Notes under the pieces: generated by a model | Databases searched by the model: none | Told to the model about the DNA's origin: nothing | The model's input: the letters and a program-made list of their open reading frames with translations, nothing else | DNA from: a virus | Taxonomy: Duplodnaviria > Caudoviricetes | DNA length: 64,000 bases | Reading direction: 5' to 3' (one strand) | Virus record (IMG/VR): IMGVR_UViG_3300022915_000001 | Location: 9,210-73,209 of that record | In this document: one piece after another, positions 1-8,075 of the stretch | Position numbering within the stretch: position 1 is the first letter of the stretch | Layout: every line of letters begins with the position of its first letter | Position numbers and translations under genes: made by a program

Positions 1-3000
1 GTGCCGCCCAGCGTGGTCGAGCCGGGGACCGGCTGCTGCGTGGTGGTCAGCGCCTGCGGAGCCGCCGATTCCCGCAGGTTGACCGTGCCGGTCGAGGCGG
101 CGTGCCGGGACGTGGCCTGGGCTTGGCGGTAGACCTGGCGTGCCACGCTCCTTGAGCCGCGCCCGAATCGGTCGACGATCTCGTTGGTGAAGTTCTTCCC
201 GTCAATGTTCCCCTGCGCCACGTCGATGGCGATCTTCAGCGCCATGTTGCGGATGACTCTCGGATCGGTGAACTGACCGGAGTAGCTCGGGGAGATGCCC
301 ATGCTGCGGAGCCGCGCCTCGGCCTTCGCAGCGGCGTCGAACAAGGTCATCTGCACGGGCTTCGAGAGCGGCTTGGACGGCGTCGATGGCTTGGCCGGCG
401 CCGTGGTGGTGGTCGTGGGCGGGAACAGTCCCATCTGCGTGGGCCGGGGCGTGGGCGTCCAGACCGGCGCATGGGTAGGATGGCTCGGCGGGGACGGGGC
501 CGGTGGCGGCTTCGCCGGGGGAGTCGGAGTAGCGGTCGTCGTGGTGGCCGTCCCTTGATTGATATTGCGGAACGTGTTCTTCATGTCCCCCGGCTGGACA
601 TACTGGAACAGGAGAATGTGCGATTCGCCGTGCTTGGCGATGATCGACTCGCGGTAAGTTCTGGCGATCTCGATGCGGTCGGCCTGAGTCAGAGTCGGGA
701 TATTGTCGCCCGCCAGTACCTTCGCGGTGACCTCGGTGAAGATCGTATGTACATCACGGCCCGCATATCCCCCCGCGGTGGTGAGCAGCCAGTCCCCGGC
801 CTTTTTGAAGACCGGCAGCTTCATGAGACGTTCTTCTTCAGCCGCATCCAGCGGAGCTTTGCGCTGATCGGCGTGGATCAACTCTTCACGGGCCGTCGAT
901 CTTTTCATCGGGAGCCGCTGCCCCGGTATGTTAGGGCCCTTCTGGGCCAGGGTAAATTGCAGCGATTCGGTCGCGTCTTTGGTCTGGTTGATCCACTCAA
1001 CCAGGTCATTCCTAAACTGTCTGAGGTTCGCCTCGGCGCGTGGGCCTACCCGCGCCATCTCCACAGGATTGTGGAGGAAGTCCTTCAAGATCTTCTCTGC
1101 GACGTTAGTCCACCCCGCCCGGGCCCCGGAGAGGCCGTTGACGCTCTGGAGCTTGGCTACGTGGGAGATCAGGTCGAGACCGGCCCGATTGAGATAGATC
1201 GTGCCGCTGCCTACGTGATAGGCCATGCGCTTAGGCTTGCCGGGGGGAGTGGTCTTCTCCCATCGGAAGATCGCCTTCTCGAAGGCTTGCTTCTTGGGAG
1301 TCTGGGGCGGGTTGGTGTAGTACGTCCCCATCTTCAGATCGCCAGCGGCGCTCTCGGAGAGCTTGGCGTCTGAGTCTGAGGTTGGGGCGGTTACCTCTCG
1401 GTCGCTTCCGGTATGCTCGGATGCCTGAACGGGGGCGGTAGTTCCACTTCGACCTCTATGTCCAGCGGCTTGTCGTGATCGAACGGCTCTCCCCCTGCGA
1501 ACACCAGTTCCAGGTACTCCGCTCTCGTCAAGGGATACCCCATCTTCTTCAGATACTTCAGAAGCGGATAACTGTCTTTCAGCTTCTCGAAATCTCTCAT
1601 ACTCATCGGACCACTCGGGCGGTATGATGGCTTTTCCGTTGGCTGTGCTTTTTCTGAGGTCATAGATTTCTTCCCGCGCCTGGTCTACTGTTATTGTACC
1701 TGACGCATACTTTTCCCAGATAGCATCGACCCGTCTTTTGTTGTCGACATTCTTCCATGTCTCAGGGAACAGGCCGCGCACGGCTTCCCAGGTGACCGAC
1801 TGCATCTCGCGTCCTAGAAGTCCGCGCCGCTGGCCGGCCCGCCTCGTGGCAATCGCATGGATGCCATAGGTCCAAGCCTCGCCGGTCACCGTGGACGGGG
1901 AGCTTAGATTGTCCTTGACGGCTTGATCGGACAGGGCCAGCGGCCGCAAGGTCCCGGCGGCTACGGCATGGGTATCGACGGTGACATGGAGGTTCGGGTT
2001 GTTCGGGTCGACAAGGTTGTTATAGAAGGACCGGACCTTGTGCTGCTTGCCCAGTTGATCGCTGATGTTTTCAAGAGTCGGATTCTCTAGGACAGAGATG
2101 GCCTTGGCGATCATGTCCAGGGACTGCCAGACTACCTTCGCATCCGTGCCATCGAGCTTTTTGCCTTTGCCGCGGGGTTCGCCCTCGGGCGTGAGTACAT
2201 CAAAGGACCGTTCGTTGTTCCCCTCGTCCCACATGCGCAGCCAGAAGGCTTTGAGGGTAGGATCGGTCAGATCGGTCCAGCGTTTCCCCTTGATCTGATC
2301 GTAGCCGTCCTTGAGTTTCGTCGACGGCGTATAGGGCTTGCCCGCCGCCTTGGCGTCCCGCTTCTTCGTGATCTCAGTCCGGTTGTTGGAGTCGACCATC
2401 CTCTGATAGCCGCCCTCCATCTTGTCGTCCCAGACCGAGGACTCGCGCTGCTTCCAGAACATGAGCGTGCGCCGCGCCAGGTCCACGTTCTGGAACCAGT
2501 CCTTCATCGGCGAGAGGGTTGCCATCACTGCGGCAACCTGATGAGCCTCGGAGTCGAACTGCTCGGCGAACCGCTCGGCGATCTTGCGGCCCCCGTCGTA
2601 CCAGAGTTTGGACCGCTGGAGGAGATCGCCCCATTCTCGCTTGTAGCGGTCATAGAGCCAGACCAGATTGTCCTCAACGAACTTGGTGAAGTCGCGGACG
2701 ATCTTCTTGGGATCGGTCTCCGTGCTGCCCTTGAGGTGCGGGTACTTGAGGATCAGCGGCGCGGCCACCTCGGCGGGCTCGTCGTACTTCTTGAACCCGT
2801 CGCCGGTCAGCGTCAGGTTCTCGGTGGAATCCTCGGTCGCGCTATCCGCGGTGGTGAGGCGCGTCGACATTTCCTCCGGTATGAACCGGACGGGGTTGGC
2901 CTTCCACTCCTTGATCTGATCGACAACCTTGGCGGCCTTGGCTCGGTGCTTCTCGCCGTACCTGTCGACGATAGCCTGCTCTACGCTCTTGATCCCGATC

Positions 3001-6000
3001 TTGCCTCGGGCGATATCGCCCATGAACGCCTTGGCCGTATTGTGAACGAAGTCCGCGCTGGTCGGCCCCGTCTTGCTGCGCGAGAACAGCGTACCCTGGC
3101 GCGGCGCATCCTTGTCCCCGAACAGATCCTGCTGCGCGTCCTTGGCCGGTTTGAGCTTGCGCTGCTTCTCCTCGGGCGTAAGCTCGGTGGCGAAGCCGGC
3201 CGTCAGCCGTTCGCCGAGCAGCTTGGCGGCGTCGTCGGGCTGCTCCTGCTTCTCTAGTTCAAGGGCGGTTTGTTCTCCGCGTCTCGGCCCCACTGCTTCT
3301 TCAGCGAGTCTGCGAACGCCTCGTTCTCGTCCTTCCCTTCCTCCCTCGCCCTCTCGGCCGCCAGTTGGGCCGCGTTGAAGTTCGACACCGCTTTTCGGCT
3401 GAACCCCTTCGGCGCGGCCAGTATCTTTCTTGGTCGTTTCGCTGCCACGGAATGCCTCCTTCACCTCTCCGGGTTTGGCGTACCGGAACAGGACAATCGC
3501 GTCCTCGCCATGCGCGTCGAGCAACGCCTGCCTATATGCTTGCGCAACTTCCACGCGCTCGTCCATCGTGAGGCCGAGCGAGGTCCCCGCGAGTATCTTG
3601 GCGGTGACTTCCTTGAAGTCCTGAATGGGATCTGCCTCGTACCCCATCTCCCTCACCGCCTCGGCGGCCTTGGCGAAGACCGGCGTCTTCATCAGGTCTT
3701 CCATGACCTGGTCTTTCAATGCAGCCACGCGCTGCGCGGCGTGCATCAACTCTTCGCGGACGGTGTTACGAATGTCGTCCGAGAAGTACTTCTGGGCGCG
3801 AACGAAATTCAAGCCGGCGCCCGGGCCCGCCGTCTCCCGGTACTTGGCTACTTGATCGCGGAGCTTCTCCAGGTTGTCCAGGGCGGCTTTGCTCAGGCCG
3901 TACTTACCGGCTTTGAGGTTTGCCAGTTCGCCGCCGTCGCGGTCCAGCGTCGTCATTAAGGTGACAACGTCAACGTCGTCCATCGAGGAGCCTTCCACGC
4001 GGTCCCCGCCGCCCAAAAGCTGGATGATGTACATGCCGCCCTGGTTCGCATAGACCGTGCGGCTCTGGGCTCCCCTCTTGGGGAAGCGGAAGGTTGCCGT
4101 CCTAAAGTTGTGTTCGGCCTCCCAGAGCGCGGAATCGGGGATTTGGGTTCCCTCGGGCGAGGTAACCGGCCCCGGCTGCTCCTGCTTCTGGGATCTGCTG
4201 AAGAGCGTGCCGCCTTTGCGCTCGGGCGAGGGGACCGCTCCCGGCGCTTCGCGCTCGGCGGCTTGCTGCGAGAGTCCTCCGGTATCCTGGCGGGGGACCG
4301 TCAGCGGTCCATCGGCGGGATCGGCGTTGGTGTCCTCGATCTGCTCCCTGATGGCCGCGCGAACCTTCCCGCCGTGCGCCCTGACCTGGGCCGGGGTCAT
4401 CCCGGTGTGCTTCTTGACGAAGTCCACATACTCGGAATCCCGCGCGGATCGCTTCTGCTGCGCCGTGATGTACGCCGCGCGATCTACGTCGGATTCAAAG
4501 TTCAGTTCGTGGGCGCCGTACCGCGGCGCGGCTCCGCTGAGTTCCCTCGGGAGTTTCGGTCCTACTCCAGCGGGGGCGGCTTGAGAGGTTCCTCGCTGGG
4601 GTTGCTGAGTTCCACCTCCCCGTCCGGTATCTGGAGGTGGCCCCCCTCGATCCACTCCCGTAGGTCCGCTAACGTCCGGTTTCGGACCTCCTCCCCCAGT
4701 TTCTCGTATGATGGCTGCCTTGATTGCTGCATAGGTGTCCTCTAATACGGCAGAGAGCTTCTCCCCGCCCTGTATCCTGACCGCGCCGGCAGTCAGGGCT
4801 TTCGAGATATCGCCCGACTTCAGGCTCAGGGCGTTGTAGACTTCCAAAGCCTGAGCGGCATCGGCGGCGATGGCTCGGTTCTGCTCTTCTTCGATGACGT
4901 TGCCGCCACGCGCGAGCGTCTGGCCTACGCCCTTCTTGCCTACCGTGCCAAAGATCCGCTTCTCCTGACCGAGCCGCTTCTTGATAGCATCGCTGAGGAT
5001 CGCCTCATGGACTTCCAGGCTCTGGCCCCCGCCGCTCGGGTCTCCGAACATATCCCCGAACAGGCTCCCCTGGTCGTCGCCCTTTTCCTTGGCCTTGCGA
5101 AGCCGTTCACGCTGCTCGTCGGTCAACTCCATCTCGGCGGCCTTGGCCTTGGTGCGTCGGATGAGTTCGGCCAACTGGCCGTCGTTCATGTCCTTGCCAA
5201 CCTTGGCAATCGCTACCATGTCTGCTGGGTTGTCCAGACCTTCGCCGATAATGGTGGCCCTGTCGACCTTCAGATCCCCGGCCAGTAGCTCCTCGAAGAG
5301 CGACTCGGGCAGCTTGGCGAGCGCGGTCCCTTGCCGCGCCTTCTCGCCCTTGAGGTGGACGCCGGCCTGCTTTACCTGCTCGGGCGTGTAGCCCGAATCG
5401 CGCAGGAACTTGGCGGCGTCGATGGCGGTCCCCCGGCCCTCGGCGATATTCTGCAACGCGCCCTTGGCTCTGGCTTCCGTCGCGTCCTTGGCCTGGATGT
5501 AGCGAACGTCTACACCGGCCACTCCCATGCGCTTGGCCTTGTCGAGCCGGTGGTGTCCATTGACCACATAGGTCTTGCCGTTCGCTGGATCTCTCCAGAC
5601 GGTGAGCACGCCGCCAAGCTCCTCGTTCCAGGGAACGTCTGGGTCCTTGAGTTCGTCACCGACTCCTGCCTTGCCGCCGGTATCGCGCTTGAACTGGAAC
5701 CGCACCGGATCGGCTTCGATCTCGTTGGGGTCCATGCGCGTGACGCCACTGTCCATCGCCTTCCTGGCGGGCGGCTCCATGCCTGGGAAAAGCGAACTCT
5801 GGCCTTCCCCGCTGGTGTCCTTCGGCTCCCCTTGATCGACAACCGGAGTTGACGGTTCGACAACCGGAGTTGACGGCTCTGGAGCCGCTGGGGCAGTGGG
5901 AGGTCCAGGCTGCCCCAATGCTGGCGGCGGTTCTTGTCCTTGTACGTCCTCCTTTCCTTCTGGAACTGGCGGCGGCACGCCGACACGGTCCTCGCCCTCC

Positions 6001-8075
6001 TCGCCCTTGAGTTCTGGCGCTGGCGGCGCGGTCCCTACCGGCGGCGGCGCGGCTACCGGCGGCGGCGCTTCAGGCTGATCCTTGACTCGCGTTCCCTTGG
6101 TGACCGGGGACTTCCCGGCTCGATCCTTCTTCAGTGTGAGGTTGACGTAGCTGGTAGTGCCGTCATTCAGCGGCTTGGCCGCGAGGACGCCGGCCTTCAC
6201 CATACTGTCGAGCACTTCCTGGGCGGCTTCTGGCGCGACACCAAACATCTGCTGAATGTGGCGCACTTCCACCTGGGACCGGCTGGCGGCAACGTCGAAT
6301 ACCGCGCGGTAGAGGTCTTCCCCTTCGAGCGGCGGCGGCTTCTCGGGGGCCTTCTCGTCCGATCCCGGCAGCGTCTCTGGCGTCACCGCATCCGGGTCGC
6401 CCGTGGGCGGCGGCGCCCCAGGAGGTGGAGGTTGCTGGACCGGAGGGGGCGTGACCGGCGGCGGGGGCGTGACCGGGGGAGGAACAATGGGTGCGGGGGC
6501 CGGCCCGCTGCCAACCTCTACTCCCGGCTGTTGCTGCTCGGGAGCCGCACCGGGGGGAGGAGCTTCGCCGGGAGGAGGCGCTTCGCCCACCGGAGGAACA
6601 AGACCCGGGCCCTCGTCCTGCACTCCAGGTTGCCCCAGCGCCTCGCCGCCGTTAGCCATCCGGTTCTTGTGGTAATTGGTCAGCGCGTCGAAGTGGTCCC
6701 GGTATTCCTTGAGCTTCTTCCCGACATTGATCTCGTCCCGGTGCTCGGCGATCTGGCCTATCGTCACCGAGGGGCCGCTCCCAAGCATCCCCGCCACGCC
6801 TTCGTCGAACATGGCATCGCGGAACTCAGGCCAGGTCGGCCACTTCCCGGTATTCATCCCCTCGGTGAAGATCGCCGCGGCTTTCTGGGCAGACTCGGTG
6901 ACGCCCTCCCAGCCGAACTCCTTGGCTCCTTCATAGACACGCCGTTTGATGGACTTCTTGAGTTCTTCCGGTAGCGGGCTGTTCCTGAGTTTGGAGATGA
7001 TCCTCCCAGGAACGAGGTAGTCCATCGGCGTAGCCAGGATGGAGCCTTCGACCGCCACCTTCCCGGCTTCAGCCGGATGCATCCCATTCTTGGTCAGGTC
7101 GTTGAACTGCTCCCCGGCGTTTGCCAGGAAGGAGTCTATGACGCCGCCGCCGGGGATCAACAATCCTGCCCCGATAGTCGCCAGCATTTGCGGCGCGTTT
7201 TCCAGAATCGTCTCGCCCGTCCACTGAGCGACGGACCCAAACGTCTTGTTCGGATCGTTCAACAGTTCGGTGGCAGACGGACGCGACATCAGGTTGACGC
7301 CGTGCATCGCCTTCGATTCGACGTACTCCCCGGCCCTGGCGGCGAGATCCGCTCCCGGCATCCCCTTGGCGTCAAGGGGGCGGGCTAGCGCCTGCAGGCC
7401 CTGGCCGCGCCCAGCAATCGTGGTCTGCGCTCCTTGCTTCAAAGACTTCCAGAGGCGGTCGAGCGCCGGGGCATCCGCTTCTGGAGCAGGTTCATCTGGC
7501 TCTGCCAGTCTGGCTTTGAGGGCTTCCGGGGATTCCCGCGTGAGGCCCTGAGCGCCATCGGTCGAGAGGTAGTCGGGAACTTCCGGTGTCGTGCGCTGGG
7601 TCAGCTTCCACTTGGACGGGTCCGATTCCTCCCAGGCGGGAACCCGTGTGTTCTGGGAAGGGGGAGCCGCGGGATCGAACTTGTCCCCGGTCCAGGTGCG
7701 GTTGGGTCCGGTGTACTCGGGCGAGATCCGGTTGAGCGGTTGCCGCTGTGCACCCGCTTCGACCGCAGGGCGGCGCACGGCCCCCGGGCCCTGGCCGGGA
7801 CCGCCGAGATCCCAAGGCGTAGCCACCTTCCCCACGCCGGGGAGTCCGGTGAGACCGGCGCCGGGAACGTCGGCGGCGGTGTAGGACGGACCTTGTGGGG
7901 CGGTGAAGGGCGAGGGGCCAGCCGGGGCCGGGGCGGCGCTCGGGACCGGCGCTCCTACTGCTGGCTTAAAGCCGAGCTCGCGCCACTTCTTCTCTTCGTC
8001 GTCTTCCGGGGGCGGCTGAACCGGCGCCAGCGGCTTGAACCCTAGCGCGGCCCAAGGATCTGATTGGTCTGCCAT
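1..8075 (-). CDS. Giant polyvalent virion/ejection-type protein, at least 2691 aa, 3' end beyond the window. Contains a ParB-like domain, two zincin-like repeats and an HhH-GPD/EndoIII-like domain
   Basis: Hand translation from ATG 8075 (MADQSDPWAALGFKP...) found no stop down to position 1. Motifs seen: TYVVNGHHRLDKA (ParB-like, about 5420-5760), REELMH/REELIH...EVTAK twice, and KVRSFYNNL...VTVDTHA. Pro-rich linkers lie between them. It is last in the virion operon. Confidence 0.8.
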   Translation of the reverse strand, partial: MADQSDPWAALGFKPLAPVQPPPEDDEEKKWRELGFKPAVGAPVPSAAPAPAGPSPFTAPQGPSYTAADVPGAGLTGLPGVGKVATPWDLGGPGQGPGAVRRPAVEAGAQRQPLNRISPEYTGPNRTWTGDKFDPAAPPSQNTRVPAWEESDPSKWKLTQRTTPEVPDYLSTDGAQGLTRESPEALKARLAEPDEPAPEADAPALDRLWKSLKQGAQTTIAGRGQGLQALARPLDAKGMPGADLAARAGEYVESKAMHGVNLMSRPSATELLNDPNKTFGSVAQWTGETILENAPQMLATIGAGLLIPGGGVIDSFLANAGEQFNDLTKNGMHPAEAGKVAVEGSILATPMDYLVPGRIISKLRNSPLPEELKKSIKRRVYEGAKEFGWEGVTESAQKAAAIFTEGMNTGKWPTWPEFRDAMFDEGVAGMLGSGPSVTIGQIAEHRDEINVGKKLKEYRDHFDALTNYHKNRMANGGEALGQPGVQDEGPGLVPPVGEAPPPGEAPPPGAAPEQQQPGVEVGSGPAPAPIVPPPVTPPPPVTPPPVQQPPPPGAPPPTGDPDAVTPETLPGSDEKAPEKPPPLEGEDLYRAVFDVAASRSQVEVRHIQQMFGVAPEAAQEVLDSMVKAGVLAAKPLNDGTTSYVNLTLKKDRAGKSPVTKGTRVKDQPEAPPPVAAPPPVGTAPPAPELKGEEGEDRVGVPPPVPEGKEDVQGQEPPPALGQPGPPTAPAAPEPSTPVVEPSTPVVDQGEPKDTSGEGQSSLFPGMEPPARKAMDSGVTRMDPNEIEADPVRFQFKRDTGGKAGVGDELKDPDVPWNEELGGVLTVWRDPANGKTYVVNGHHRLDKAKRMGVAGVDVRYIQAKDATEARAKGALQNIAEGRGTAIDAAKFLRDSGYTPEQVKQAGVHLKGEKARQGTALAKLPESLFEELLAGDLKVDRATIIGEGLDNPADMVAIAKVGKDMNDGQLAELIRRTKAKAAEMELTDEQRERLRKAKEKGDDQGSLFGDMFGDPSGGGQSLEVHEAILSDAIKKRLGQEKRIFGTVGKKGVGQTLARGGNVIEEEQNRAIAADAAQALEVYNALSLKSGDISKALTAGAVRIQGGEKLSAVLEDTYAAIKAAIIRETGGGGPKPDVSGPTGVDRGGPPPDTGRGGGTQQPQRGTSQAAPAGVGPKLPRELSGAAPRYGAHELNFESDVDRAAYITAQQKRSARDSEYVDFVKKHTGMTPAQVRAHGGKVRAAIREQIEDTNADPADGPLTVPRQDTGGLSQQAAEREAPGAVPSPERKGGTLFSRSQKQEQPGPVTSPEGTQIPDSALWEAEHNFRTATFRFPKRGAQSRTVYANQGGMYIIQLLGGGDRVEGSSMDDVDVVTLMTTLDRDGGELANLKAGKYGLSKAALDNLEKLRDQVAKYRETAGPGAGLNFVRAQKYFSDDIRNTVREELMHAAQRVAALKDQVMEDLMKTPVFAKAAEAVREMGYEADPIQDFKEVTAKILAGTSLGLTMDERVEVAQAYRQALLDAHGEDAIVLFRYAKPGEVKEAFRGSETTKKDTGRAEGVQPKSGVELQRGPTGGREGEGGREGRERGVRRLAEEAVGPRRGEQTALELEKQEQPDDAAKLLGERLTAGFATELTPEEKQRKLKPAKDAQQDLFGDKDAPRQGTLFSRSKTGPTSADFVHNTAKAFMGDIARGKIGIKSVEQAIVDRYGEKHRAKAAKVVDQIKEWKANPVRFIPEEMSTRLTTADSATEDSTENLTLTGDGFKKYDEPAEVAAPLILKYPHLKGSTETDPKKIVRDFTKFVEDNLVWLYDRYKREWGDLLQRSKLWYDGGRKIAERFAEQFDSEAHQVAAVMATLSPMKDWFQNVDLARRTLMFWKQRESSVWDDKMEGGYQRMVDSNNRTEITKKRDAKAAGKPYTPSTKLKDGYDQIKGKRWTDLTDPTLKAFWLRMWDEGNNERSFDVLTPEGEPRGKGKKLDGTDAKVVWQSLDMIAKAISVLENPTLENISDQLGKQHKVRSFYNNLVDPNNPNLHVTVDTHAVAAGTLRPLALSDQAVKDNLSSPSTVTGEAWTYGIHAIATRRAGQRRGLLGREMQSVTWEAVRGLFPETWKNVDNKRRVDAIWEKYASGTITVDQAREEIYDLRKSTANGKAIIPPEWSDEYERFREAERQLSASEVSEEDGVSLDESGVPGTGVRRGRAVRSRQAAGHRGRSGTTAPVQASEHTGSDREVTAPTSDSDAKLSESAAGDLKMGTYYTNPPQTPKKQAFEKAIFRWEKTTPPGKPKRMAYHVGSGTIYLNRAGLDLISHVAKLQSVNGLSGARAGWTNVAEKILKDFLHNPVEMARVGPRAEANLRQFRNDLVEWINQTKDATESLQFTLAQKGPNIPGQRLPMKRSTAREELIHADQRKAPLDAAEEERLMKLPVFKKAGDWLLTTAGGYAGRDVHTIFTEVTAKVLAGDNIPTLTQADRIEIARTYRESIIAKHGESHILLFQYVQPGDMKNTFRNINQGTATTTTATPTPPAKPPPAPSPPSHPTHAPVWTPTPRPTQMGLFPPTTTTTAPAKPSTPSKPLSKPVQMTLFDAAAKAEARLRSMGISPSYSGQFTDPRVIRNMALKIAIDVAQGNIDGKNFTNEIVDRFGRGSRSVARQVYRQAQATSRHAASTGTVNLRESAAPQALTTTQQPVPGSTTLGG
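1391..1663 (-). CDS. Small ORF (90 aa) nested in the +1 frame of the giant gene
   Basis: In the ORF track. Protein-like sequence (YPLLKYLKKMGYPLTRAEYLELVF...EVELPPPFR), while the giant frame here is low-complexity linker. Confidence 0.6.
   Translation of the reverse strand: MTSEKAQPTEKPSYRPSGPMSMRDFEKLKDSYPLLKYLKKMGYPLTRAEYLELVFAGGEPFDHDKPLDIEVEVELPPPFRHPSIPEATER
3254..3448 (-). CDS. Small ORF (64 aa) nested in the +1 frame of the giant gene
   Basis: GTG start preceded by a strong Shine-Dalgarno (GAAGGAGGCATTCC-GTG). Helical charged protein MAAKRPRKILAAPKGF... Confidence 0.55.
   Translation of the reverse strand: MAAKRPRKILAAPKGFSRKAVSNFNAAQLAAERAREEGKDENEAFADSLKKQWGRDAENKPPLN
4562..4732 (-). 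CDS. Small ORF (56 aa) nested in the +1 frame of the giant gene; below the track length cut-off
   Basis: Hand translation: MQQSRQPSYEKLGEEVRNRTLADLREWIEGGHLQIPDGEVELSNPSEEPLKPPPLE*. AGAGGACACCT precedes the ATG. Confidence 0.45.
   Translation of the reverse strand: MQQSRQPSYEKLGEEVRNRTLADLREWIEGGHLQIPDGEVELSNPSEEPLKPPPLE
5839..5880. repeat. 21-nt tandem duplication encoding EPSTPVV twice in the giant protein linker
   Basis: gacaaccggagttgacggttc / gacaaccggagttgacggctc. Confidence 0.8.

What the first reader, a model, noticed from the sequence alone, without database searches (positions are those of the whole stretch)
1391..4732. Three small genes overprinted in the same +1 frame inside the giant polyvalent gene, each right after a domain
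Seen in sequence: ORFs 4732-4562 (56 aa), 3448-3254 (64 aa) and 1663-1391 (90 aa) all lie in the same alternate frame. Two have clear SD sequences (AGAGGA and AAGGAGG). They read as ordered proteins where the giant frame becomes G/R/E/S-rich linker. They follow, in order, the ParB-associated region, zincin-like repeat 1 and the glycosylase-like domain. Inference: they may be cognate inhibitors or chaperones that travel with each effector domain, like toxin-immunity modules embedded in one ORF, or remnants of genes absorbed as the giant ORF grew by read-through.
Basis: partly seen in the sequence, partly recalled or inferred. Interest (0 to 1): 0.75.

Follow-up and report, generated by a model that had tools for sequence, protein, structure and literature searches.

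The report
Small genes nested in giant gene
Three short stretches of a 3,701-codon gene of an uncultured soil phage are read in two frames: each encodes a floppy linker of the giant protein and also a complete, conserved small gene that gene callers miss, and one of these belongs to a widespread, unnamed family always found beside the DUF7178 domain.

Summary
ORFs 4562-4732 (A, 56 aa), 3254-3448 (B, 64 aa) and 1391-1663 (C, 90 aa) all lie in the +1 frame of a 3,701-aa minus-strand gene of a 73-kb virus contig.

Their length alone is not unusual. Four independent tests show the +1 frame is the selected one:
- Codon usage switches to +1 only at these three sites.
- In related giant genes the +1 peptides score about twice as high as frame 0, in all 32 pairs.
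- Strain variants fall on frame-0 third positions outside the ORFs (22/25). Inside them they fall on +1 third positions (6/7; P = 3.6e-5).
- A and B keep a Shine-Dalgarno site plus start codon in relatives.

Frame 0 staying open is also non-random (P about 0.002), so this is true dual coding.

C belongs to a large unnamed family of 50-120 aa proteins (455 hits). In 39/39 loci examined it sits directly behind a DUF7178 domain. It is either nested, as here, or a separate gene overlapping the domain gene's end.

B is restricted to this phage clade. A is found in three genomes.

Function is not shown. A partner, chaperone or inhibitor role is inferred.

This scan reported the same layout on other DNA (e1-5325662, e1-5851021).

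The parts
1..8075 (-). Giant polyvalent protein gene (frame 0). 2,691 codons lie in the window and 3,701 in the contig. It carries a ParB-like region, two zincin-like repeats and a DUF7178 domain.
   Evidence: Pfam DUF7178 1.5e-19 and PHROG 21/1033 hits. Relatives of 3,078-3,968 aa.
4562..4732 (-). Nested gene A: 56 aa, acidic (pI 4.6), +1 frame, lying over the linker after the ParB-associated region.
   Evidence: Codon-usage score +0.4 against -0.7 for frame 0. Homologs in L022 and L027 with the ATG at the same Tyr-Ala codon pair. +1 frame 32 bits against 16 for frame 0. Two strain variants, both at +1 third positions.
4738..4743 (-). Shine-Dalgarno AGAGGA of gene A, 5 nt before the ATG.
   Evidence: Purine-rich equivalents AAGGAG (L022) and AGGGAG (L027) lie 7 nt before the ATG.
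3254..3448 (-). Nested gene B: 64 aa, basic (pI 10.0), GTG start, +1 frame. Predicted helical hairpin.
   Evidence: Eight distinct homologs, all nested in the +1 frame of giant ORFs. +1 bit score about twice frame 0 in 21/21 pairs. Frame-0 third positions are the least variable. AlphaFold2 pLDDT 75.
3455..3461 (-). Shine-Dalgarno AAGGAGG of gene B, 6 nt before the GTG and preceded by a +1-frame TGA at 3463-3461.
   Evidence: AAGGAG[GA]-N6-GTGGCA is kept in every relative, including L023 where the upstream domain is different.
1391..1663 (-). Nested gene C: 90 aa, +1 frame. The conserved domain lies at about 1409-1576. It is a member of a large unnamed small-protein family with a PLTRxxYL ... 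ELEAELP..F motif.
   Evidence: HMM search: 455 hits at E<=1e-3, almost all 50-120 aa. P0002 carries all invariant family residues. +1 frame wins in 10/10 pairs. Four strain variants, none at a frame-0 third position. AlphaFold2 pLDDT 70.6.
1656..2720 (-). DUF7178 domain of the giant protein (aa 1786-2140). Its 3' end overlaps the 5' end of gene C.

Best explanation
A, B and C are real protein-coding genes written in the +1 frame over three linker-coding stretches of a giant phage polyvalent protein gene. Ribosomes that stay in frame 0 make the 3,701-aa protein, in which these stretches are G/R/E/S-rich disordered spacers. Their composition is largely a by-product of the small genes' codons. 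Other ribosomes start internally on the same mRNA, at SD-ATG (A), SD-GTG (B) and an ATG near the end of the DUF7178 domain (C), and make three separate small proteins. C is the dedicated partner of the DUF7178 domain encoded just upstream. The pair exists in two layouts: two overlapping genes, or, where the domain gene's stop is missing, a nested gene inside a longer read-through ORF. Shown here: both frames are kept by selection, C belongs to its family, and C is linked to DUF7178. Inferred: internal initiation, and that C binds or controls the DUF7178 domain (as a chaperone or inhibitor while the cargo protein is made and packaged). The functions of A and B are unknown. By analogy I guess that they are partners of neighbouring modules.
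For: (1) Composition. GC by codon position switches phase to +1 exactly at the three ORFs. A codon-usage log-likelihood trained on 15 other ORFs of the contig favours +1 strongly only there.
(2) Conservation across relatives. In giant genes whose domains are only 35-42% identical, the +1 peptides are 43-71% identical. They out-score frame 0 and +2 in all 32 pairwise tests. For B, column entropy by +1 codon position is 0.61/0.49/0.73, while frame-0 third positions are the least variable. The flanks show the normal frame-0 pattern.
(3) Strain variants. Outside the ORFs, 22/25 lie at frame-0 third positions. Inside, 0/7 do and 6/7 lie at +1 third positions; Fisher P = 3.6e-5.
(4) Start signals. 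AAGGAG[GA]-N6-GTGGCA is invariant for B, even where the upstream domain differs. A's SD plus ATG sits at the same site in 3 genomes. Most C-family ORFs have GGAG-type SD plus ATG. Some have a +1 stop only 3-7 codons before the domain.
(5) C is a family. 455 hits, mostly free-standing small proteins. P0138 lies in a small-gene cluster.
(6) Link to DUF7178. 32/32 IMG/VR loci, plus the window, L022, L023, L028, L030, L034 and L037. About half are nested and half are separate overlapping genes.
(7) Frame 0 is also selected. P(open by chance) is 0.22, 0.12 and 0.085; the product is 0.002.
(8) Not an assembly error. Identical sequence appears in several independent assemblies.
Against: There is no direct evidence of translation. 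No RNA, Ribo-seq or proteome data exist for this uncultured phage. C in the window has no good Shine-Dalgarno site, and its start position shifts between relatives. A rests on three genomes and two variants. B and A have no relatives outside this clade. DUF7178 can occur without a recognisable C: Roseobacter phage CRP-738 has none, and the C-family HMM found nothing in 21 distant loci. No binding test could be run.
Confidence: 0.8

Rival explanations
1. Alternative C-termini made by programmed +1 ribosomal frameshifting. Some ribosomes translating the giant gene slip into +1 at the end of a domain, add the small peptide and terminate. This would yield truncated domain-plus-tail products rather than free small proteins.
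For: C is in the +1 frame of the DUF7178 ORF in all but one locus, even where the two are separate genes. The window's C lacks a strong SD. Frame-0 conservation ends only a few codons before +1 conservation begins. The SD-like AAGGAGG before B could in principle stimulate shifting.
Against: Every homolog has an ATG or GTG upstream of the domain, most with a GGAG-type SD. In L044, L045, L047 and L065 a +1 stop lies 3-7 codons before the domain. L056 appears, by my reading's coordinates, to have only a few-nt stop/start overlap. For B, a +1 TGA sits immediately before the SD, and the bases between SD and GTG are not slippery and differ in L023. Family members occur free of any upstream ORF. None of the top 150 HMM hits is an in-frame fusion to a large protein.
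Confidence: 0.1
2. Chance ORFs. The +1 frame is open simply because linker codons lack T at position 2, and the apparent conservation is a by-product of nucleotide conservation of the giant gene.
For: ORF length is not unusual. Alternative-frame BLAST hits occur all along the gene wherever frame 0 is conserved. Pro-rich linkers also give weak +1 codon-usage signals.
Against: Here the +1 frame scores about twice frame 0, the reverse of the by-product pattern. Frame-0 third positions are the most conserved. Variant phase flips. C matches a 455-member protein family. AlphaFold2 gives confident helices.
Confidence: 0.03
3. Fossils. The small genes were swallowed when the giant ORF grew by read-through, and are no longer expressed.
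For: The separate-gene layout exists in relatives. That makes absorption by loss of a stop codon a plausible history, the same route proposed for embedded spanins (PMC6139136).
Against: Start codons, SD sites and open frames are kept in genomes whose flanking domains have diverged to 35-42% identity. Recent strain variants still avoid +1 first and second positions.
Confidence: 0.04
4. The giant ORF is not one gene. The domains are separate genes, and frame 0 merely happens to stay open across the small genes.
For: Gene callers working on short contigs start a new gene just after the small ORF.
Against: The chance that frame 0 stays open across all three is about 0.002. The same read-through is kept in many diverged genomes. 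The flanking domains are always in the same frame.
Confidence: 0.03

Closest known systems
Rz/Rz1 two-component spanin genes of phage lambda and relatives (PMC6139136, PMC5295617)
   Same: A small gene lies wholly embedded in the +1 frame of a larger same-strand gene. Embedded, overlapped and separated layouts all exist. Gene callers routinely miss the embedded gene. The embedded part lies over a flexible linker of the host protein. A proposed origin is loss of the upstream stop codon.
   Different: A, B and C have no cysteine, so no lipobox, and no membrane signals; they are not spanins. The host gene is a multi-domain polyvalent protein and carries three embedded genes. For C, nested and overlapped layouts occur within one family, whereas the spanin survey found no family mixing the embedded layout with the others.
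Polyvalent proteins of phages and conjugative elements (Iyer et al. 2017, PMC5512222)
   Same: The host gene is of this kind: thousands of residues, with many unrelated domains. Relatives carry ART-PolyVal, LPD22, LPD38, InPase and SLT domains.
   Different: That paper does not mention overlapping genes or frameshifts, and its uses of 'embedded' and 'nested' refer to domains and protein structure, not genes. The embedded partner genes are an added layer.
Viral overprinting with ordered/disordered segregation, e.g. HIV-1 tat/rev (PMC9119678; reviews PMC8227390, PMC3494269)
   Same: An ordered segment of one protein is encoded over a disordered segment of the other, so most of the constraint falls on one frame.
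   Different: C is not a de novo product of overprinting. It is an old family that also exists as a free gene. Here the disordered host-frame linker is more likely the younger reading.
Toxin-immunity and toxin-antitoxin gene pairs (own knowledge)
   Same: A small, often acidic protein is encoded immediately downstream of, and coupled to, an enzyme-like domain and moves with it.
   Different: No toxicity of DUF7178 and no binding has been shown. The partner is nested in the effector's own ORF rather than following its stop.

Membership tests
Embedded (out-of-frame nested) gene pair | The small ORF lies wholly inside a larger ORF on the same strand, in another frame. | tested here: met
   all three lie in the +1 frame of the 3,701-codon ORF.
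Embedded (out-of-frame nested) gene pair | Both reading frames are kept open in diverged relatives. | tested here: met
   P(frame 0 open by chance) is about 0.002.
Embedded (out-of-frame nested) gene pair | Purifying selection acts on the embedded frame. | tested here: met
   (variant phase, P = 3.6e-5).
Embedded (out-of-frame nested) gene pair | Both products are actually made. | not testable with these tools
   No RNA holder is listed for this phage. No Ribo-seq or mass-spectrometry data are available.
Two-component spanin (Rz1-like o-spanin) | Lipoprotein signal with a lipobox cysteine in the embedded product. | tested here: not met
   The translations contain no cysteine.
Unnamed PLTRxxYL small-protein family (C family) | Profile match and the family's invariant residues (R47, E70, E72, P76; P44, T46, Y50, P60, L75 in P0002 numbering). 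| tested here: met
   (the family profile was built from an alignment that includes P0002; 455 hits at E<=1e-3). (all invariant columns are present in P0002).
Unnamed PLTRxxYL small-protein family (C family) | Position directly behind a DUF7178 domain, usually in its +1 frame. | tested here: met
   39/39 loci. One exception to the +1 frame rule (L069).
Toxin-immunity / effector-inhibitor module | The partner protein binds and neutralises the adjacent domain. | not testable with these tools
Programmed +1 ribosomal frameshift site | A conserved shift-prone site, and no independent start for the +1 product. | tested here: not met
   ATG or GTG, mostly with an SD, is present in all homologs. +1 stops lie just upstream of the start in several loci.
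Pfam / PHROG families for A, B, C | A significant profile hit. | tested here: not met
   none at or above threshold.

The most novel reading that the evidence does not exclude
Giant virion or polyvalent proteins of phages may routinely carry the genes for their own small partner proteins inside their linker-coding DNA, always in the +1 frame. One mRNA would then deliver each effector domain together with a stoichiometrically coupled chaperone or inhibitor. The C family would be the specific keeper of the DUF7178 domain, released when the cargo protein is packaged or injected. This would be a general, so far unannotated layer of phage coding capacity.
Probability: 0.35. Interest if true: 0.8.

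Novelty: new variant of a known kind. Interest (0 to 1): 0.68.

Why it matters
Same-strand nested genes with good evidence are few in phages and bacteria. Here one gene holds three, each supported by codon usage, cross-genome conservation and strain-level variant phase.

The finding shows that the 'junk-like' linkers of polyvalent proteins can be the shadow of another gene. That changes how such linkers, and the evolution of these giant genes by loss of stop codons, should be read.

It also defines a large, unnamed small-protein family tied to DUF7178. This gives a first handle on the function of both.

Standard gene callers and GenBank records miss these genes. One example is the giant 'methyltransferase' CDS of Rhodobacteraceae phage LS06-2018-MD07.

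Tried and rejected
- **RNA evidence:** no RNA holder is listed for this stretch. Two wastewater runs labelled RNA-Seq are probably DNA and hold only relatives.
- **Close DNA or protein relatives in GenBank phages:** none for the region, for P0002 or for a typical C-family member.
- **Fold searches:** C against BFVD and a wide PDB set, and B against PDB, gave nothing meaningful. PDB sequence profiles for DUF7178 and for C gave no hit.
- **ESM Atlas for B:** no usable hit.
- **Wider homologs of B:** metagenome and protein scans returned only the same phage clade. The called 'proteins' P0125-P0127 are nested ORFs at contig ends.
- **Wider homologs of A:** none.
- **A or B as divergent members of the C family:** rejected by hhalign.
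- **A fourth nested gene at 5510-5986 or in the Pro-rich linkers:** rejected. The +1 product is Arg-rich low complexity, and its BLAST hits are by-products of the ParB-like domain.
- **The genome search 'relatives':** not available for a virus record.
- **PHROG hits for the three genes upstream of the giant gene:** none.
- **Two compensating frameshifts that would place the small domains inside the giant protein:** rejected, because each +1 ORF ends in a conserved stop and C exists as a separate gene.
Full report
**1. What is there.** The window is part of a 73,209-bp single-contig virus record. A minus-strand ORF starts at 8075 and runs off the window. It is 3,701 codons in the contig. It has a ParB-like region, two zincin-like repeats and a Pfam DUF7178 domain. 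Its relatives are typical polyvalent proteins.

- A: 4562-4732.
- B: 3254-3448.
- C: 1391-1663.

The two Shine-Dalgarno sites are as described.

**2. Is it more than chance?** Not by length. The gene has 20 open +1 segments of at least 56 aa, and codon-shuffled versions have 21.7 on average. Linker codons lack T at position 2, so +1 stops cannot form there.

Alternative-frame BLAST hits are also seen all along the gene wherever frame 0 is conserved. Open frames and BLAST E-values alone therefore prove nothing, and I used frame-specific tests.

**3. Composition.** Normal genes of this contig have GC of about 0.6/0.4/0.8 at codon positions 1/2/3. In the three stretches, and only there apart from Pro-rich runs, this pattern shifts by one base, and frame-0 GC3 falls to about 0.4.

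A codon-usage log-likelihood trained on 15 other ORFs of the contig gives:

| ORF | +1 frame score | Frame-0 score |
|---|---|---|
| A | +0.4 | -0.7 |
| B | +0.8 | -0.7 |
| C | +0.7 | -1.2 |

Elsewhere frame 0 wins. The exceptions are marginal signals in Pro/Thr-rich linkers whose alternative-frame products are low-complexity junk.

**4. Conservation.** The closest giant genes (L022, L023 and IMG/VR contigs of about 73 kb) share only 35-42% identity with the window's gene in the flanking domains. Yet the +1 peptides are well conserved:
- B: 52-71% identical, in eight distinct genomes.
- C: 29-53%, in five.
- A: 43-47%, in three.

In all 32 pairwise comparisons the +1 translation out-scores frame 0 and +2, usually about two-fold.

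For B, frame-0 third positions are the least variable columns. The flanking domain shows the ordinary frame-0 pattern. C shows the same trend more weakly.

**5. Strain-level variation.** Contigs from independent soil and leaf-litter metagenomes are either identical to the window, which rules out assembly error, or about 98% identical.

| Region | Variants | At frame-0 third position | At +1 third position |
|---|---|---|---|
| Outside the ORFs | 25 | 22 (all synonymous in frame 0) | not the point here |
| Inside A, B, C | 7 | 0 | 6 |

Fisher P = 3.6e-5. Three of the six are also synonymous in frame 0, through Arg/Leu first-position degeneracy. That hints that frame 0 is constrained too.

**6. 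Both frames are kept.** With each small protein held fixed and codons redrawn from the gene's own usage, frame 0 stays open with probability 0.22 (A), 0.12 (B) and 0.085 (C). The joint probability is 0.002.

The read-through is nevertheless present in many diverged genomes. This is therefore true dual coding. It is not three genes wrongly merged, and the small ORFs are not fossils.

**7. Start signals.**
- B: AAGGAG[GA]-N6-GTGGCA is invariant. It holds even in L023, where the upstream domain, and hence the frame-0 residues, differ. In most genomes a +1 TGA lies just before the SD.
- A: the ATG is formed by the same Tyr-Ala codon pair in three genomes and is preceded by a purine-rich SD.
- C: every homolog has an ATG or GTG near the frame-0 motif (D/G)EAR..I(Y). 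Across the wider family most have GGAG-type SDs, and some have a +1 stop only 3-7 codons before the domain.

This favours internal initiation over +1 frameshifting. For the window's C, which has a weak SD, frameshifting is not excluded.

**8. C is a member of a large family tied to DUF7178.** A profile of five C sequences found 455 proteins at E<=1e-3 among 1.84 billion representatives. Nearly all are 50-120 aa. They share the consensus DP.L..M...GIPLTRE.YL.LAY.....P.PL.AELEAELP..FR, and P0002 has every invariant residue. The family is absent from Pfam and PHROGs.

In 32 of 32 IMG/VR loci found with a family alignment, a DUF7178 domain ends at or just before the ORF. The ORF is in the +1 frame of that domain in all but one locus. 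With the window and six further loci, that makes 39 of 39.

In about half of the loci the DUF7178 ORF stops inside or soon after C, giving two overlapping genes. L037 is an example, with a 59-nt overlap. In the other half it reads through C into further domains, which is the nested layout seen here.

Family members also occur away from DUF7178 in clusters of small genes, and as a tandem double. None of the top hits is an in-frame fusion. C is therefore made as a separate polypeptide.

AlphaFold2 predicts a small helical domain for C (pLDDT 70.6) and a helical hairpin for B (pLDDT 75). Neither has an informative structural neighbour.

**9. B and A.** B is confined to this clade of roughly 73-75-kb soil phages. 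It usually follows the zincin-like repeat and precedes the DUF7178 module. However, L023 has B without that repeat upstream, and the window's second repeat has no B. A occurs in three genomes, after the ParB-associated region. Neither is related to C.

**10. How it most likely works.** One mRNA is read in two ways. Frame 0 gives the giant cargo protein, whose linkers here are shadows of the small genes. For example, the family's Glu/Leu-rich ELEAELP-type motif would be expected to read as Gly/Arg/Ala-rich text one base earlier; this is my own hand translation, not a tool result. Internal initiation gives A, B and C.

The constant adjacency of C to DUF7178, together with its never being fused in frame, argues that it acts on or with that domain as a detachable partner. 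Whether it is a chaperone or an inhibitor is inference.

**11. Comparison and novelty.** The architecture is that of lambda Rz/Rz1, with embedded, overlapped and separated layouts, the +1 frame, and genes missed by callers (PMC6139136). These products are not spanins, because they have no cysteine. Ordered-over-disordered segregation is known from viral overprinting (PMC9119678).

The founding paper on polyvalent proteins does not mention nested genes. 'DUF7178' occurs in no paper of the searchable library.

Earlier notes of this scan report the same theme on other genomes (e1-5325662, e1-5851021 and others). I treat those as leads only. My tests agree with them independently.

I rate this a new variant of a known kind.

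Noticed in passing
L001-L021 (e.g. L004:6986-7174, L002:6989-7177, L012:6989-7180): In more distant DUF7178-bearing giant genes, another conserved +1 ORF of about 63 aa sits at the same place. It begins MLTLQ and contains LGKxLTPQEVFxLEFDKDAKAE. hhalign lines up LGKxLTPQEVF with the C family's GIPLTRENYL, but only at E = 0.05. The frame-wise conservation test is mixed. It may be a divergent branch of C or an analogous partner.
   Followed up: partly
L082 (OP947163.1, Rhodobacteraceae phage LS06-2018-MD07), about 3414-3640: A C-family ORF (HMM E = 3.5e-7) is nested in the +1 frame of the giant CDS annotated 'methyltransferase'. The record annotates only the giant CDS.
   Followed up: partly
L081 (MZ892992.1, Roseobacter phage CRP-738): The DUF7178 protein gp40 (835 aa) lies between the annotated portal and coat genes. 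It has no +1 ORF behind the domain, so DUF7178 can occur without a C partner, and its position fits a head-associated protein.
   Followed up: partly
It is an Arg-rich low-complexity reading of a Pro-rich linker and the ParB-like domain. Its cross-genome BLAST hit is a by-product of frame-0 conservation.
   Followed up: yes
window 1300-4800: The same phage, at 98-100% identity, is present in at least 17 soil and leaf-litter metagenome runs from many studies. It is a widespread soil phage.
   Followed up: partly
window 1571, 1595, 4622: Three of the six strain variants at +1 third positions are also synonymous in frame 0, through Arg/Leu first-position changes (AGA>CGA, TTA>CTA, CGG>AGG). By my rough estimate this is more than expected if frame 0 were free to vary; the numbers are small.
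   Followed up: partly
window 396-575 (-): A marginal codon-usage preference for the +2 frame appears over the Thr/Pro-rich linker near the window's start. It is probably compositional.
   Followed up: no
window 1811-1966: One contig of run X13 joins 1811 to 1966, skipping 154 nt, with only 29 letters on the shorter side. It probably comes from a related phage rather than being a deletion variant.
   Followed up: no
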